Source: a virus. From it: DNA of 12,171 nucleotides. The notes below the pieces were generated by a model, which was not told the DNA's origin, ran no database searches, and saw only the letters and a program-made list of their open reading frames with translations. A program made the position numbers and the translations under genes. This document shows, piece by piece, positions 2,363 through 10,973 of this stretch (positions are counted from its first letter, which is position 1; each line of letters opens with the position of its first letter). The stretch lies in UHGV virus genome UHGV-0231044; one strand, 5' to 3'.

Positions 2363-2710
2363 TCAACTCACAGGAATGGTTAACGAAAGTGGCTGGCCGG
2401 TGTCGTTGTGCTGGCCGGTTAACGTGACCGTCATTCGCCCGTCAAAACTGCGCGCCGTAGTGACGGATGACAGGGTGACGCGGGGTTCCCATTTCAGCAC
2501 TGCCATGTAACAGGCGACCTTAATCTGCAACTCAAGCGCCGGGGTCTGTGGCTGGTCAATCATTGACGCCAGCAATGAGCCGTAATCACGACGCATCACC
2601 CGTGAGCCGACCGGCGTGCGCAGGATATCGCCGATACTCTGGCTGATATGCTCAAGGTCAGTGACAGTCAGGCCATCACTGCGATTCATTCCGAGATAAC
2701 GCGCTGTCAT
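2363..2710 (-). CDS. W: Baseplate wedge protein GpW (T4 gp25-like)
   Basis: 115-aa ORF (MTARYLGMNRSDGLTVTDLEHISQSIGDILRTPVGSRVMRRDYGSLL...), size and sequence typical of P2 gpW; 4-nt stop/start overlap with V. Confidence 0.9.
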   Translation of the reverse strand: MTARYLGMNRSDGLTVTDLEHISQSIGDILRTPVGSRVMRRDYGSLLASMIDQPQTPALELQIKVACYMAVLKWEPRVTLSSVTTARSFDGRMTVTLTGQHNDTGQPLSLTIPVS

Positions 2711-3336
2711 AGAGGTCCCCCGGTTGTGCCGCCGCTGTCGCCGGGGTGTTTATGGGTATGCAGTACCTTACCGTTTGATGAGAGCTCACCGCCGGTATGA
2801 GCGATGTTGCCGCGCATCGTCCCGCCCTTCTGTACTTCCAGCGTGCCGGTAATCAGCCTGTTGGTGCAGACCACCTCCGGTGTGTCCAGGGTGATGCGGG
2901 TTGACGCTTTCACCATGACCACCGGCACCGTGGCAGTAACAGAATCAGAAGCCGTCACGCTGGCCGTTTTAATTCCGCTTACCGTGAGTGCACTGGTTTC
3001 GGGTTCATACTCAATCACCGCCCCGTCAGGGAAACGGATATGCAGGGCATCAGACGACGCAGACGGCGCTGGGTTATCGCCGGAATAAATCCCCGGCAGA
3101 ACGAACGCCGTGTCGAGTTCACCGCCCACGGCCAGAATCAGCACCTGTTCCCCCACGGAAGGTGCCCACCATGTGCGCGAACGCCCAGCGCGATGGGTCA
3201 GCCACTGAAGCCAGTCGGTGCACATGCCGCCGGTCTGCACACGGCAGCGACCGGCATTAAGGTCGGTTTCGACGATAATGCCAGTGCGAATCATATTGCG
3301 TATAAAGCGAAGAATTTCATTGTATTGTGCATTCAT
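2707..3336 (-). CDS. V: Baseplate hub/spike protein GpV
   Basis: ORF track gives 2707..3414 but its first codon at 3414 is not ATG (TTG); first ATG is at 3336 (MNAQYNEILRFIRNMIRTGIIVETDLNAGRCRVQTGG...), giving 209 aa, consistent with P2 gpV length about 211 aa. C-terminal HTHKHPGDSGGTTG is the conserved spike tip. No obvious Shine-Dalgarno before 3336, so start is less certain than the rest. Confidence 0.85.
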   Translation of the reverse strand: MNAQYNEILRFIRNMIRTGIIVETDLNAGRCRVQTGGMCTDWLQWLTHRAGRSRTWWAPSVGEQVLILAVGGELDTAFVLPGIYSGDNPAPSASSDALHIRFPDGAVIEYEPETSALTVSGIKTASVTASDSVTATVPVVMVKASTRITLDTPEVVCTNRLITGTLEVQKGGTMRGNIAHTGGELSSNGKVLHTHKHPGDSGGTTGGPL

Positions 3337-3360
3337 TCGATAATAATGATTCTGTACAAT
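3332..3360 (+). promoter_or_regulatory. Candidate sigma70 promoter for the cargo gene (TTCATT - 17 bp - TACAAT), inside the 86-bp V/cargo divergent region
   Basis: Seen in sequence: -35-like ttcatt 3332-3337, 17-nt spacer, -10 tacaat 3355-3360 preceded by TG; about 60 nt upstream of ATG 3423. Prediction only; -35 is a weak match. Confidence 0.3.
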
Positions 3361-3422
3361 CTCGAAGTAAATCACACCACGATTTCTGGTGCACAGAACA
3401 ACAAGGGACAACAAAATCCATT

Positions 3423-4496
3423 ATGAGTACTTACTTTTTCTCGTCAGAAACAATGAAAGAATTGTTCAAAGATTATCTGGTCTTTTTGAACACGCTGACT
3501 CCCAGCACAAACTTTGAATCAAACAGAAACAAAATAATTGCTCAAGCAATAAACTTCATTTCCGAAAACCCTGAAGATTGGGACAAAAAATCCCAGTACA
3601 ACATTGCTATGATTGGCGACACCTTTAAAAGTTTCTTAAGAGAAAAGGGGGAAGATAACAACAGCATCAACCTTATATTCACTTGCTTTTTTAGATTTAT
3701 CATTGAACCAAGCATTCTCTCTCCGGAAATAGAGTCTCACTTTTCACCACTAAGAACCATCAAGGATTTTGCTCTGTATAACTATAATGAATTCGATGAG
3801 CGGAGCAGAGCACAGATAGACTTTTCTCTTAGAGAACTGCCATTAGCAATGGTTAAAGAAGTTTTAAGCTCCAGCAATGTTGACACATATAAAAAATACA
3901 TTGATAGTTTAAACGAAGGGCGTCAATTTTTCGAAAAGTGCGACTCCTTCTTAAAGGAGCAACATGCCAAAATAGAGTCAATTAAAGAGTCATTAAAAGG
4001 GTATGAGGTCGCATTTAATTTTGTTGGATTGTTTGATGGCTTTAATTCACTTGGCAAAAAGAAAGAAAGTGAAATCATGCTATCAAGAATAATTCTTATC
4101 ATCTTGGCTATAATCATTCCCTCCCCGCTGATATACTATGGAATGCATAAATTACCAACTCTGGAAACGACAAATGCTGCCACATATTTTATGTCAGCAC
4201 TACCTTTTGCATCAGTTACATTGATTTTTATGTATTACTTTAGAGTTGTACTGATAAATCATATATCGTTACGAACTCAGATTATGCAAATAGAACTCAG
4301 AAAGAGCCTTTGTCAGTTCATTCAGAGTTATAGCGACTATTCCTCAGAGATAAGGAAAAACAATCCGGAAGCGCTTTCAAAATTTGAAGACGTAGTATTT
4401 TCAAACATCATGCTATCCGATGATAAGATACCATCTACATTTGATGGTATTGAACAAATAGCATCGTTAATCAACGCATTGAAAAATGGCAAGTAA
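3423..4496 (+). CDS. Hypothetical membrane-anchored protein (357 aa), AT-rich cargo gene at the S/V (orf30-type) moron slot; candidate phage-exclusion/abortive-infection protein of unknown family
   Basis: Long ORF in strongly AT-rich DNA; ORF track extends to 3327 but ATG 3423 (MSTYFFSSETMKELF...) has AGGGA 12 nt upstream and avoids overlap with V start. Two hydrophobic helices near the C-terminus (IMLSRIILIILAIIIPSPLIYYGM and AATYFMSALPFASVTLIFMYYFRVVLI, about nt 4075-4265). Ends TAA 4494-4496 followed immediately by a hairpin terminator. No Walker, HxH, DEAD or nuclease-type motifs seen by eye. Confidence 0.8.
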   Translation: MSTYFFSSETMKELFKDYLVFLNTLTPSTNFESNRNKIIAQAINFISENPEDWDKKSQYNIAMIGDTFKSFLREKGEDNNSINLIFTCFFRFIIEPSILSPEIESHFSPLRTIKDFALYNYNEFDERSRAQIDFSLRELPLAMVKEVLSSSNVDTYKKYIDSLNEGRQFFEKCDSFLKEQHAKIESIKESLKGYEVAFNFVGLFDGFNSLGKKKESEIMLSRIILIILAIIIPSPLIYYGMHKLPTLETTNAATYFMSALPFASVTLIFMYYFRVVLINHISLRTQIMQIELRKSLCQFIQSYSDYSSEIRKNNPEALSKFEDVVFSNIMLSDDKIPSTFDGIEQIASLINALKNGK

Positions 4497-4500
4497 TGAT

Positions 4501-4530
4501 AAAAGGCCAATAACTGGCCTTTTATTTATT
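4501..4530. terminator. Rho-independent terminator hairpin (stem AAAAGGCCA / TGGCCTTTT, loop ATAAC, then ATTTATT); likely bidirectional for the cargo gene and the convergent late operon ending in S
   Basis: Seen in sequence: 4501-4509 aaaaggcca, loop 4510-4514, 4515-4523 tggcctttt (perfect 9-bp inverted repeat) followed by T-rich run; lies 5 nt after cargo stop and 70 nt beyond the S stop on the other strand. Confidence 0.6.
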
Positions 4531-4599: not shown

Positions 4600-5052
4600 C
4601 TAGCGATTCAGGTGAGCCAGAATAATCTCTTCAATCATCTGCACATCCTCACCGGTAAAGCCGAGCAGAGGACGCGCCGGATAATCAATTTTCTTACCGT
4701 CTTTCCGGTTTTCTTCCGACAGACCGAACTGATGCACGCAGGCGATTTTCGGTGACTTCCCGCCGTAAAATTCCATTGATGCCTGCTCCGGGCTGGCGCG
4801 GATATGCAAAAAACGACTGGTGATAAGTTTCGCAAACATTTTTCGCTTAACACGACCGGTCTTTTTTCTGGCGCTCTGCTGCTGGCGTGGCGCGTAGGGT
4901 GTGCCGTCCGGGGCTTTCTGTGCCATCACCCGACGCTGCTGACTCTGCCGCAGACGTTTCGCCAGTTCGGCGCTCAGTCGCCGACGCCCTGACGGTGACA
5001 GCGATTCAGTCAGTCCGGTCAGCCGGTCTTCAAAACGCTTAAACTCATTCAT
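4600..5052 (-). CDS. S: Tail completion protein GpS
   Basis: 150-aa ORF (MNEFKRFEDRLTGLTESLSPSGRRRLSAELAKRLRQSQQRR...), size and sequence typical of P2 gpS; overlaps R by 8 nt. Confidence 0.9.
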   Translation of the reverse strand: MNEFKRFEDRLTGLTESLSPSGRRRLSAELAKRLRQSQQRRVMAQKAPDGTPYAPRQQQSARKKTGRVKRKMFAKLITSRFLHIRASPEQASMEFYGGKSPKIACVHQFGLSEENRKDGKKIDYPARPLLGFTGEDVQMIEEIILAHLNR

Positions 5053-5765: not shown

Positions 5766-6045
5766 TCAGTAACCTCGTGATGGTTTTCTCGCGCTGTGCT
5801 TCACGCTTCGCGGCGTTCTCCAGTTCCTGACGCAGTGCCACCTGCGCCAGCTCGTTTTTGTCTGCTCTGGTGAGGGCAACATGAAGCTGATTTTTCAGCA
5901 TGGTGATGGTCGTCTGCTGTTCACTGGCGACGTTATTCGCCCTGTCCAGCGAGGCGCGCAGGCTGTCATTTTTGTGTTTCACCAGAAACAGACCGGCCAC
6001 CGCCAGCGATAACAACACGACCAGCACAATCATCAGCTTTGACAT
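5620..6045 (-). CDS. lysB: LysB, Rz-like inner-membrane i-spanin
   Basis: 141-aa ORF with N-terminal TM helix (MSKLMIVLVVLLSLAVAGLFLV) followed by charged coiled-coil-like region (ELENAAKREAQREKTITRLLNENEDFRRW); position after lysA as in P2. Confidence 0.8.
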   Translation of the reverse strand: MSKLMIVLVVLLSLAVAGLFLVKHKNDSLRASLDRANNVASEQQTTITMLKNQLHVALTRADKNELAQVALRQELENAAKREAQREKTITRLLNENEDFRRWYGAGLPDAVRRLHQRPACADASDCSQRLPESEPLPDAGQ

Positions 6046-10800: not shown

Positions 10801-10973
10801 TGTCAGGAGTCCTGAATAGTGATTAGAGGAGTCACATGTCGGCATCAGTTTCCCGACGATGCGCATCCTCCGCCATCAGTCCCGGATGGCTTATCACTGA
10901 CACAACAGCACCTTAGCGAATCGCGGGGCGCGACTCAGTAGCCTTGCCGTGTATTCATCACGGCGAGGTATTC
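10801..10973. promoter_or_regulatory. Divergent late promoter region between O and P (expected Ogr/Delta-activated late promoters); candidate activator half-site pair TGG-N12-ACA at about 10886-10903
   Basis: 173-bp non-coding gap between divergently transcribed O and P, the position of the P2 PO/PP late promoters (established for P2). Motif call is by eye, one mismatch to TGT-N12-ACA; other dyads present (GTCGG-N10-CCGAC around 10838-10857). Confidence 0.45.

What the first reader, a model, noticed from the sequence alone, without database searches (positions are those of the whole stretch)
3297..3422. 86-bp divergent control region shared by V (late baseplate operon) and the cargo gene; V's first codons are island-derived
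The V start codon (3336..3334) and the cargo start (3423) are separated by only 86 bp of AT-rich DNA, and the first 14 or so codons of V (MNAQYNEILRFIRN, nt about 3295-3336) are themselves AT-rich. The late promoter driving V-W-J-I-H must therefore lie inside or overlap the island and the cargo gene's 5' end. I could not find a convincing TGT-N12-ACA Ogr-type site here. Either V is expressed from an atypical promoter or read-through, or the cargo promoter and the late V promoter overlap and could interfere with each other, for example cargo expression in the lysogen shutting off when late transcription fires.
Basis: partly seen in the sequence, partly recalled or inferred. Interest (0 to 1): 0.6.

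Follow-up and report, generated by a model that had tools for sequence, protein, structure and literature searches.

The report
Back-to-back V and cargo promoters
The 86-bp gap between the P2-type baseplate gene V and a divergent AT-rich accessory gene holds a normal Ogr-dependent late promoter, which probably starts V's mRNA at its ATG, packed back-to-back with the accessory gene's own promoter; this is a tidy variant of a known P2 layout rather than an anomaly.

Summary
V starts at 3336 (minus strand), the cargo ORF starts at 3423 (plus strand), the spacer is 86 bp (37% GC), and V codons 1-14 (31% GC) belong to the variable segment; homology with P2 resumes at about 3295.

The idea of an atypical promoter or read-through is not supported. 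P2 has the same layout: orf30 and V are 83 bp apart, the activator site lies in the gap, and the V transcription start is annotated on the A of the ATG. A PWM trained only on other lineages gives two outliers in the window: the known pO/pP Ogr site (20.6) and a site at 3405-3376 (17.3; next best 6.5). That site lies at the usual distance from V. A -35-like TTTACT (3371-3366) and a -10 CATTAT (3348-3343) put +1 at or near the ATG. Strict TGT-N12-ACA also fails on P2's own annotated sites.

The overlap idea is supported by comparison, not by experiment. A cargo-sense promoter, TTGTAT (3320-3325)-16-AATAAT (3342-3347), shares its -10 with P_V. Its -35 lies in V codons 4-6. It is conserved across genera and survives in a Kosakonia relic that has lost the V start and the Ogr site. 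That explains why V's first codons travel with the cargo gene.

The parts
3295..3336 (-). V codons 1-14 (MNAQYNEILRFIRN). They belong to the exchangeable cargo module, and nt 12-17 double as the cargo -35 hexamer on the other strand.
   Evidence: Breakpoint with P2 at V nt 42/43. About 200 genomes match only up to ~3300. GC is 0.31. The 14-aa N-terminal subtype co-occurs with the cargo family in 7 of the genera examined.
3334..3336 (-). V start codon. The predicted P_V transcription start is at or within about 3 nt of its A (3336), giving a leaderless V mRNA.
   Evidence: P2 annotates the V TSS on the A of the ATG. There is no Shine-Dalgarno sequence upstream. The -10-like hexamer is locked at -13/-12 from the ATG in 45 of 59 clusters. 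The internal Met15 is Leu or Ile in many relatives.
3343..3348 (-). P_V -10 hexamer CATTAT, at -12 to -7 from the V ATG.
   Evidence: CATTAT sits at exactly -12 to -7 in E. coli, Citrobacter, Enterobacter, Lelliottia, Cronobacter and Pantoea, whose spacers are otherwise unalignable. It is unchanged in the 93%-identical CD45 copy.
3366..3371 (-). P_V -35-like hexamer TTTACT, at -35 to -30 with a 17-nt spacer to the -10.
   Evidence: It is in register with the family's conserved ATTGCC; T at -35 is present in 52 of 59 clusters. It is unchanged in CD45 and E. albertii.
3376..3405 (-). Ogr-type activator site. The core is TGT (3403-3401)-N11-CCA (3389-3387), with TTGTTGT at -68 to -62 from the V ATG.
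   Evidence: PWM score 17.3, second of 24,284 positions after pO/pP (20.6), with the third at 6.5. Chance is about 1e-6 per position, and 0.0002 of shuffles of 3300-3460 reach this score. On flanks alone it scores 9.4, against -1.5 for the next of 75 TTGTs. TTGT lies at -70 to -65 in 54 of 58 clusters. There are no substitutions here in CD45.
3320..3325 (+). Predicted cargo promoter -35 hexamer TTGTAT, inside V codons 4-6.
   Evidence: The same position holds TTGAGT in Citrobacter, Enterobacter, Lelliottia and Cronobacter, and it is retained in the Kosakonia relic.
3342..3347 (+). Predicted cargo promoter -10 hexamer AATAAT. It shares 5 of 6 bp with the P_V -10 on the opposite strand. The predicted cargo TSS is about 3354, 18 bp from the V TSS.
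   Evidence: CATAAT occupies the same offset in four genera, with 72/72 pairwise hexamer identity against 0.42-0.66 around it. It scores 48/48 in the Kosakonia relic. The 18-bp spacing is the commonest class of bidirectional promoter (PMC12825309).
3332..3360 (+). Alternative or secondary cargo-sense promoter candidate, TTCATT-17-TACAAT (8/12).
   Evidence: It is conserved only among the E. coli, CD45 and E. albertii copies, not in other genera.
3423..4496 (+). Cargo gene: a 357-aa all-helical protein with a transmembrane hairpin, family phrog_9373, function unknown.
   Evidence: It is unrelated to P2 Orf30.
4501..4530 (.). Bidirectional intrinsic terminator (A-run, GGCCA-loop-TGGCC, U-run). 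It ends the cargo transcript on the plus strand and the O-to-S late operon on the minus strand.
   Evidence: Fold z-scores are -3.5 (plus strand) and -2.6 (minus strand). P2 annotates the O-operon terminator at the same place.

Best explanation
The 86-bp spacer plus the first ~17-42 nt of V form a compact bidirectional control region. It is a variant of the P2 orf30-V region.

V direction (minus strand). A normal P2-type, Ogr-dependent late promoter P_V lies wholly within the spacer:
- activator site TGT-N11-CCA at 3403-3387, about -59 from the ATG;
- weak -35 TTTACT at 3371-3366;
- -10 CATTAT at 3348-3343;
- transcription starting at or within a few nt of the A of the V ATG (3336), so the V-W-J-I-H-G mRNA is leaderless, as annotated for P2.

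Cargo direction (plus strand). A sigma70-type promoter, TTGTAT (3320-3325)-16-AATAAT (3342-3347), starts the cargo mRNA near 3354 and gives a ~69-nt leader. Its -10 shares 5 of 6 bp with the P_V -10. Its -35 lies in V codons 4-6. The P_V -35 and the Ogr site lie in the DNA that encodes the cargo leader.

Consequences.
- The cargo promoter needs V nt 1-17, so recombinants that move a working cargo gene carry V's first codons with it. That explains the breakpoint at V nt ~42.
- Inferred, not shown: in the lysogen there is no Ogr, P_V is silent and RNAP uses the cargo orientation. After induction, Ogr recruits RNAP to P_V, and RNAP cannot occupy the shared -10 in both orientations at once.

What is shown and what is inferred. 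Shown here: the sequence elements, their positions, and their conservation or decay across lineages. Inferred: the two transcription start sites, Ogr dependence, and any interference.
For: Same layout in P2. orf30 diverges from V across 83 bp, the pV activator site lies in the gap, and the V TSS is annotated on the A of the ATG. Site centres lie 55-58 bp from all four annotated late TSSs.

The activator. Ogr in the 99.6%-identical prophage is 100% identical to P2 Ogr. P2's own sites read TGT-N12-CCA (pO/pP, pF) and TGT-N11-ACA (pV).

The Ogr-type site in the window.
- TTGT lies at -70 to -65 from the V ATG in 54 of 58 independent clusters.
- The PWM, trained without the window type, scores pO/pP 20.6, the spacer site 17.3 and the next hit 6.5.
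- Chance is about 1e-6 per position; 0.0002 of shuffles reach this score.
- The flank-only control gives the same two outliers.

The -10 and the leaderless start. CA[TA][CT][CA]T starts at -13/-12 in 45 of 59 clusters. CATTAT is at exactly -12 to -7 in six genera that carry this cargo family.

The V start codon. The N-terminal peptide is conserved while the internal Met is not.

Selection on the spacer. Between E. coli and E. albertii the spacer is 91.9% identical and the cargo CDS 80.8% (Fisher p = 0.009; p = 0.0008 against the first 300 nt). The six CD45 substitutions in the spacer all fall outside the Ogr site, the -35 and the -10.

The cargo promoter.
- TTGAGT-16-CATAAT is identical in four genera at the same offset, with 72/72 pairwise hexamer identity against 0.42-0.66 around it.
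- The Kosakonia relic has lost the V ATG (now CGG, with an in-frame TAA) and the Ogr site (PWM -3.4). It keeps both hexamers (48/48) while the rest is 41-50% identical.

Other points. The 18-bp TSS separation at a shared -10 is the commonest bidirectional-promoter class (PMC12825309). A terminator at 4501-4530 makes read-through unnecessary.
Against: - No transcript mapping exists for this phage. Both TSSs are inferred from geometry.
- The right half of the Ogr site is degenerate (CCA at N11). The family shows N10-N13 spacings, so the exact contacts are uncertain.
- If the site centre must lie -55.5 from the TSS, the V TSS would be 2-4 nt upstream of the ATG rather than on it.
- The E. coli cargo promoter is weaker (8/12) than in other genera (9/12). 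In E. albertii the -10 is AATGAT. A second candidate, TTCATT-17-TACAAT, is equally conserved among the Escherichia copies.
- Hexamer conservation is partly confounded by V coding and by the V -10. Only the single Kosakonia relic separates these constraints, and it could simply be young.
- The cargo Shine-Dalgarno (AAGGGA) lies 14 nt from the ATG, which is far.
- PMC12825309 reports that basal activity at the five bidirectional promoters it tested was too low for RNAP competition, so interference cannot be assumed.
- The Pantoea lineage has CATTAT but no good Ogr-PWM hit (5.0) and no cargo-sense promoter at my threshold.
Confidence: 0.72

Rival explanations
1. P_V is the canonical Ogr-dependent leaderless promoter as described. 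The overlap with the cargo promoter is only a packing consequence with no regulatory effect. The cargo gene may be driven mainly by another start (for example TTCATT-17-TACAAT, TSS about 3367), and the two transcripts are made independently.
For: The TACAAT candidate scores 8/12 and is conserved in the E. coli, CD45 and E. albertii copies. [quoted passage not shown] Empty S-V junctions show that P_V works in only 59-76 bp with no partner promoter.
Against: The TACAAT candidate is absent from the other genera. TTGAGT-16-CATAAT is position-locked in four genera and survives in the Kosakonia relic. P_V is strongly activated late, so occupancy would not be basal. Any promoter inside the spacer still overlaps P_V.
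Confidence: 0.2
2. V is expressed by read-through from the O-to-S late operon across the island, antisense to the cargo gene, because the island displaced or destroyed P_V.
For: There is no strict TGT-N12-ACA in the spacer. S and V are on the same strand.
Against: A high-scoring Ogr-type site, a -35 and a -10 lie at the family's canonical positions. A strong bidirectional terminator lies at 4501-4530, where P2 annotates the O-operon terminator. The strict pattern also misses real P2 sites. Read-through would need 1.1 kb of antisense transcription through the cargo gene.
Confidence: 0.04
3. The true V start is the internal Met (codon 15, about 3294). Nt 3295-3336 would then be a 5' UTR supplied by the island, so no V codons are island-derived.
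For: The Pfam OB-fold domain of V begins at residue 17. The homology breakpoint coincides with this Met. Neither ATG has a Shine-Dalgarno sequence.
Against: The Met is Leu or Ile in many relatives, while the upstream peptide M(N/K)xxxx(I/L)xE(L/I)xRxLRN is conserved as protein across genera and always opens with an in-frame ATG. P2 annotates the V CDS and TSS at the upstream ATG. PGAP calls the 209-aa form.
Confidence: 0.03
4. The Ogr site works bidirectionally, like the shared pO/pP site. It would also drive a late, cargo-direction promoter starting near 3447-3450, just upstream of the second ATG (3453).
For: In P2 one site serves pO and pP, whose TSSs are 111 bp apart. 3336 + 111 is about 3447. 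PGAP calls some copies from ATG 3453.
Against: Met11 is not conserved; the Citrobacter homologue has no Met there. Full-length homologues cover the 357-aa form. No -10-like hexamer is evident at 3435-3442. The Ogr site is lost in the Kosakonia relic although the cargo gene is kept.
Confidence: 0.03

Closest known systems
Bacteriophage P2 late promoter P_V and the orf30-V intergenic region (GenBank AF063097 annotation; mapping attributed from memory to Christie & Calendar 1985)
   Same: Same position between S and V. A divergent AT-rich accessory gene lies 83 bp away (86 bp here). The activator site lies in the gap about 55-59 bp from the start, and the TSS is on the A of the V ATG. The O-operon terminator sits between S and the accessory gene. 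Ogr is identical.
   Different: The spacer DNA is not alignable (no blastn match). The cargo protein is unrelated to Orf30. The -10 is CATTAT at -12 to -7 rather than CAATCT/TGCAAT. The module boundary lies 42 nt inside V rather than at the ATG. P2 shows no obvious cargo-sense promoter sharing the -10.
P2 pO/pP divergent late promoters sharing one Ogr site
   Same: The site has the same half-site composition (TGT...CCA) and is recognised by the same PWM. The window's own copy at 10887-10905 is the top hit.
   Different: At pO/pP both divergent promoters are Ogr-dependent and sit symmetrically about the site. Here only the V side is positioned for activation. The opposing promoter is sigma70-like, shares the -10 rather than the activator site, and persists without the site.
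Bacterial bidirectional promoters with a shared, pseudo-symmetrical -10 element (Warman et al. 2021; PMC12825309)
   Same: Two -10 hexamers on opposite strands overlap by 5 bp. The predicted divergent TSSs are 18 bp apart, the commonest class. One RNAP binding event excludes the other.
   Different: One arm is a phage late promoter that depends on a zinc-finger activator and makes a leaderless mRNA. The -35 of the other arm lies inside the first gene's coding sequence. Neither TSS has been mapped.
Phage morons: accessory genes with their own promoter and terminator inserted between essential genes. The S-V (orf30) position is one of three recognised moron regions of P2-like phages (PMC6823313, PMC3091744).
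   Same: The gene is AT-rich and non-structural, lies at the orf30 position, and has its own promoter and terminator.
   Different: It is not a sporadic insertion. The family has kept this position, orientation and 83-90 bp spacer across at least eight genera while diverging to 36-40% identity.
Leaderless mRNAs such as lambda cI from P_RM
   Same: The predicted transcript starts at the A of the AUG and has no Shine-Dalgarno sequence.
   Different: It is the first gene of a six-gene late structural operon rather than a repressor gene. The leaderless state is inferred here from P2's annotation and from conserved geometry.

Membership tests
P2-type Ogr/delta-dependent late promoter | Activator-binding element of partial dyad symmetry (nominally TGT-N12-ACA), centred about 55 bp upstream of the TSS | tested here: met
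   TGT-N11-CCA at 3403-3387. PWM score 17.3, second only to pO/pP in the window. The centre is about -59 from the V ATG, against -57 for P2 pV. The strict consensus is not met, but P2's own annotated sites do not meet it either.
P2-type Ogr/delta-dependent late promoter | Lies immediately upstream of a late morphogenetic operon (V-W-J-I-H-G) | tested here: met
   V, W, J and I follow on the minus strand.
P2-type Ogr/delta-dependent late promoter | A cognate Ogr-family zinc-finger activator is encoded by the same phage | tested here: met
   ogr lies outside the window. In the 99.6%-identical prophage, OgrK is 100% identical to P2 Ogr.
P2-type Ogr/delta-dependent late promoter | Transcription depends on Ogr (and on the RNAP alpha subunit) | not testable with these tools
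   This needs reporter or in vitro transcription assays.
Leaderless mRNA | The TSS coincides with (or lies within a few nt of) the A of the start codon | tested here: inconclusive
   No transcript data are available. It is supported indirectly by P2's annotated TSS on the ATG and by the -10 locked at -13/-12 in 45 of 59 clusters, with CATTAT at -12 to -7 here.
Leaderless mRNA | No Shine-Dalgarno sequence upstream of the start codon | tested here: met
   The sequence ...AATCATTATTATCGA-ATG has no purine-rich SD. The same holds across the family (...CATCCTTTCCCC-ATG).
Bidirectional promoter with shared -10 element | Overlapping -10 hexamers on opposite strands, compatible with divergent TSSs 18 bp (or 10 or 23 bp) apart | tested here: met
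   CATTAT at 3348-3343 (minus strand) and AATAAT at 3342-3347 (plus strand). The predicted TSSs are 3336 and about 3354, 18 bp apart.
Bidirectional promoter with shared -10 element | Both divergent transcripts are actually initiated | not testable with these tools
   This needs TSS mapping. Comparative support comes from the cargo-sense hexamers retained in the Kosakonia relic.
Moron at the P2 orf30 (S-V) locus | A non-structural gene between S and V with deviant (low) GC and its own terminator | tested here: met
   Cargo GC is 0.35 against 0.55-0.60 in the flanks. The terminator lies at 4501-4530. The locus is recognised in the literature.
Moron at the P2 orf30 (S-V) locus | Homology to P2 Orf30 | tested here: not met
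   BLASTP E = 1.3. The two proteins fall in different PHROGs, 9373 and 2407.

The most novel reading that the evidence does not exclude
The V late promoter and the cargo promoter form a single conserved bidirectional switch built on one shared -10 element. Without Ogr, RNAP reads toward the cargo gene (lysogenic expression). With Ogr, RNAP is captured in the V orientation, and Ogr bound at +33 to +49 of the cargo leader also blocks it, so the accessory gene is shut off as tail assembly begins. The cargo -35 is written in V codons 4-6, so the cargo gene, the spacer and the V N-terminus have co-evolved and recombine as one module across at least five enterobacterial genera.
Probability: 0.3. Interest if true: 0.5.

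Novelty: new variant of a known kind. Interest (0 to 1): 0.38.

Why it matters
- It removes an apparent anomaly. The late baseplate operon of this prophage has an ordinary Ogr-type promoter. The textbook TGT-N12-ACA string is a poor detector even for P2's own sites; a family PWM anchored on TTGT at about -65 works much better.
- It suggests that leaderless expression of V is a conserved design across P2-like phages, not a quirk of P2. That design lets the whole late promoter fit into 59-90 bp.
- It gives a concrete, testable example of how an accessory gene is wired into an essential phage operon: a shared -10, with the -35 written inside the neighbour's coding sequence. This explains why recombination breakpoints fall inside V, and why this cargo family keeps a fixed position and spacing while diverging to about 40% identity.
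- If the switch behaviour is real, it would be a minimal mechanism for turning a lysogenic-conversion gene off at the onset of late transcription.

Tried and rejected
- Strict TGT-N12-ACA search. It gave two intragenic hits (771-788 and 5973-5990), no more than chance, and missed the real pO/pP site. A relaxed TTGT-N11/12-MCA pattern finds both real sites but is not enriched overall (4 hits against 7 expected). I used a PWM instead.
- blastn of 3280-3480 against phage genomes found no match, so homology-based transfer of P2's annotation was not possible.
- Internal Met15 as the V start: rejected.
- Hairpin CACCA-N7-TGGTG at 3393-3373, flagged as terminator-like and as a V-sense fold with z = -2.5. 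Rejected as functional: its right arm is broken in the CD45 and E. albertii copies, it would not be transcribed from a TSS at 3336, and the cargo-sense leader shows no structure (z = 0.06).
- Sigma70-like CTGACG-16-CATAAT on the minus strand at 3447-3420. The number of such hits does not exceed shuffles (5 against 4.4), and I did not examine it in other lineages.
- A symmetric Ogr-driven cargo promoter near 3447: rejected (see rival explanations).
- Cargo function. No significant Pfam, PADLOC or NCBIfam hit; PHROGs gives only an unknown-function family. The AlphaFold model (pLDDT 79.5) is all-helical with a TM hairpin and has no meaningful PDB match (best TM-score below 0.3). The afdb50 library was unavailable.
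- Rfam found nothing in the window.
- Literature searches for published statements on the leaderless P2 V transcript found nothing in the held library, and Julien & Calendar 1995 is not held. That point rests on the GenBank annotation and on my recollection that P2 gene V appears in reviews of leaderless mRNAs.
Full report
**Context.** The window is a P2-like prophage with its late genes on the minus strand: I, J, W, V (2707-3336), S (4600-5052), R, the lysis genes, then X, L, M, N and O. P is on the plus strand from about 10973. Between V and S lies a 1.26-kb segment of 35% GC, flanked by DNA of 55-60% GC. It carries one plus-strand ORF, 3423-4496 (357 aa).

**1. The observation.**
- The V ATG is at 3336-3334 and the cargo ATG at 3423, so the spacer is 86 bp (37% GC).
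- V codons 1-14 (3295-3336) are 31% GC.
- PGAP makes the same two gene calls in a 99.6%-identical prophage of E. coli LR-45.
- An alignment with P2 and pro483 shows a sharp breakpoint. From ATGATTCGCACTGG (V nt 43) onward the window is about 98% identical to P2. Nt 1-42 are unalignable and differ by a 6-nt indel.
- About 200 complete E. coli genomes match my query only up to window ~3300. Sixty carry the whole island.
- No strict TGT-N12-ACA occurs in the spacer.

**2. This is the P2 layout.** In the P2 GenBank record (AF063097), orf30 is divergent from V and 83 bp away. An "activator binding site; activation of pV promoter" lies inside that gap. The "transcription start site for V operon" is placed on the first base of the V CDS. 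A terminator for the O operon lies between S and orf30. For all four annotated late promoters the centre of the activator site is 55-58 bp from the annotated start, so the V annotation is not a placeholder: P2's V mRNA is leaderless. I also recall P2 gene V being listed among classical leaderless mRNAs, but I could not find that in the held literature. The S-V (orf30) position is one of three recognised moron regions of P2-like phages (PMC6823313, PMC3091744).

P2's own annotated sites are not TGT-N12-ACA. pO/pP reads TGT-N12-CCA, pF reads TGT-N12-CCA, and pV reads TGT-N11-ACA. In this window the strict pattern gives two intragenic hits (2.9 expected by chance). It misses the pO/pP site at 10887-10905, which is identical to P2's.

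**4. An unbiased test for a late promoter.** I fetched 160 loci encoding V relatives and anchored each on the V ATG.
- TTGT begins at -70 to -65 in 54 of 58 independent clusters of upstream sequence, whatever lies upstream (the S stop codon, orf30 or other cargos).
- I built a 30-nt PWM from those 54 sites. It excluded the window's own type and did not use pO/pP.
- I scanned all 24,284 positions of the window with it. The top hit is the pO/pP site (20.6). The second is CTTGTTGTTCTGTGCACCAGAAATCGTGGT at 3405-3376 on the V-sense strand (17.3). The third scores 6.5.
- Chance gives such a score at about 1e-6 per position. It occurs in 0.0002 of shuffles of 3300-3460, anywhere on either strand.
- With the TTGT columns removed, the same two sites still stand apart from the other 73 TTGTs in the window: 12.7 and 9.4, against -1.5 for the next (mean -15, sd 7.6).
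- The core reads TGT (3403-3401)-N11-CCA (3389-3387). This combines the N11 spacing of P2 pV with the CCA half-site of P2 pO/pP and pF.
- Ogr in the near-identical prophage is 100% identical to P2 Ogr.

**5. Core promoter and start point.** Across 59 clusters a -10-like hexamer CA[TA][CT][CA]T starts at -13 or -12 from the V ATG in 45. T at -35 is present in 52, and G at -14 in 48. A -10 locked to the start codon is what a leaderless transcript requires. The window has TTTACT at -35 to -30 (3371-3366), a 17-nt spacer, and CATTAT at -12 to -7 (3348-3343). No Shine-Dalgarno sequence precedes the ATG. CATTAT sits at exactly -12 to -7 in six genera that carry the same cargo family, although their spacers are otherwise unalignable. 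The ATG at 3336 is the real start. The internal Met15 is Leu or Ile in many relatives, while the N-terminal peptide is conserved as protein (MNTLxxIQELARALRN; here the shorter MNAQYNEILRFIRN). P_V therefore occupies about -69 to +1 and fits within the 86 bp without touching the cargo ORF.

**6. Read-through is unnecessary.** A strong bidirectional intrinsic terminator lies at 4501-4530, between the cargo stop and the S stop. It has an A-run, the stem GGCCA/TGGCC and a U-run. Fold z-scores are -3.5 and -2.6.

**7. The cargo gene is an old resident of this locus.**
- The protein belongs to an uncharacterised family (phrog_9373) with no significant Pfam, PADLOC or NCBIfam match. It is all-helical with a TM hairpin and has no structural match. 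It is unrelated to P2 Orf30.
- Homologues at 76% to 36% identity all lie between S and V and divergent from V. They come from E. albertii, Citrobacter, Enterobacter, Lelliottia, Cronobacter, Pantoea, Pectobacterium and Yersinia.
- The spacers are 83-90 bp, with 99-102 bp in one Pectobacterium lineage, 129 bp in Yersinia and 314 bp in Kosakonia.
- In a survey of 90 distinct S-V junctions the junction is either empty (59-76 bp) or holds islands of 0.6-2.7 kb in either orientation. The tightest well-supported divergent spacers are 83-89 bp, found in P2 orf30 and in this family. A 57-bp value in L086 comes from an unverified ORF call.
- The 14-residue V N-terminus co-occurs with this cargo family.

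**8. The cargo promoter overlaps P_V.**
- On the cargo-sense strand, Citrobacter, Enterobacter, Lelliottia and Cronobacter share an identical TTGAGT-16-CATAAT (9/12 to consensus). Its -10 begins 6 nt beyond the A of the V ATG, and its -35 lies in V nt 12-17.
- The window has TTGTAT (3320-3325)-16-AATAAT (3342-3347) at the same offsets.
- The two hexamers are 100% identical among the four genera (72/72 pairwise). The 16 nt between them are 66% identical, the V-coding side 64% and the downstream side 42%.
- The predicted cargo TSS (about 3354) is 18 bp from the V TSS (3336), and the two -10 hexamers share 5 of 6 bp. This is the commonest geometry of bacterial bidirectional promoters, at which one RNAP binding event excludes the other (PMC12825309).
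- Kosakonia provides a natural dissection. Beside its cargo gene lies a decayed V 5' fragment, with ATG changed to CGG and an in-frame TAA. The Ogr-type site there is gone (best PWM -3.4). Both cargo-sense hexamers and their spacing are intact (48/48), while surrounding positions are 41-50% identical. The functional V, with a separate canonical P_V, lies about 230 bp further on. So the hexamers serve the cargo gene and the Ogr site serves V.
- The spacer is under selection. Between E. coli and E. albertii it is 91.9% identical, against 80.8% for the cargo CDS (Fisher p = 0.009; p = 0.0008 against the first 300 nt). The six substitutions in the 93%-identical CD45 copy fall at -86, -42, -40, -28, -26 and -5, outside the Ogr site, the -35 and the -10.

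**9. Synthesis.** V's 5' end moves with the cargo gene because the cargo -35 lies in V codons 4-6. A functional cargo cassette therefore includes at least V nt 1-17, and the observed crossover is at nt ~42. Still inferred: both start sites, Ogr dependence, and whether late activation of P_V actually lowers cargo expression. PMC12825309 cautions that competition was negligible at basal activity in the five promoters it tested.

**10. Verdict.** This is a well-behaved variant of the known P2 orf30-V control region. The new detail is that a leaderless late promoter and a moron promoter share one -10 element, conserved across genera. It is moderately interesting and readily testable.

Noticed in passing
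L164:30860-33203 (E. coli LR-45 prophage, outside the window): The near-identical prophage carries a reverse-transcriptase family protein plus an AAA family ATPase (retron-like pair) at the old/tin position. It also has a 175-aa hypothetical protein at the Z/fun position, so all three P2 moron regions are occupied by non-P2 cargo.
   Followed up: no
L002:1644-1709 and many loci (e.g. L112, L126, L129): In phages with an empty S-V junction, the O-operon terminator-like hairpin (ATTGCCGCC...GGCGGCATCCTTTCCCC) lies between the -35-like and -10-like elements of P_V. The 3' arm of the stem runs into the CATCCT hexamer, so terminator and promoter are superimposed within about 66 bp.
   Followed up: partly
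window 3423 vs 3453; L166/L167:804: PGAP is inconsistent about the cargo start: 357 aa from ATG 3423 in LR-45 and CD45, and 347 aa from the second ATG in the 98.3% variants, although the DNA there is identical. Neither ATG has a well-placed Shine-Dalgarno sequence (AAGGGA lies 14 nt before 3423).
   Followed up: partly
L168/L169:3657-4091: In E. albertii an IS200/IS605-type Y1 transposase gene (PF01797) is inserted between the cargo gene and S, enlarging the island to 1.9 kb.
   Followed up: no
window 5972-5990 (+): A perfect TGT-N12-ACA (TTGTGTTTCACCAGAAACA) lies inside the lysA/lysB region, on the strand antisense to the late genes. Its PWM score is only 6.3. It is probably chance, but it is the third-to-fourth best hit in the window.
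   Followed up: partly
window 3393-3373 (-): An inverted repeat CACCA-N7-TGGTG overlaps the right half of the Ogr-type site. Its right arm is disrupted in the CD45 and E. albertii copies, so it is probably not functional.
   Followed up: yes
L180 (Sedimenticola MAG): A 38%-identical cargo homologue lies in a non-enterobacterial genome with no neighbouring P2-type tail genes called, so the family is not strictly confined to the S-V locus.
   Followed up: no
L178:1-332 (Yersinia enterocolitica): In this locus V is followed by a small ORF and a PIN-domain gene where W and J would be expected, which suggests a degraded prophage or a toxin-antitoxin insertion.
   Followed up: no
L173/L174 (Pantoea): The Pantoea lineage keeps CATTAT at -12 to -7 but has no good match to the Ogr-site PWM (best 5.0; TTGT at -70 and -64). 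This suggests a diverged activator specificity.
   Followed up: no
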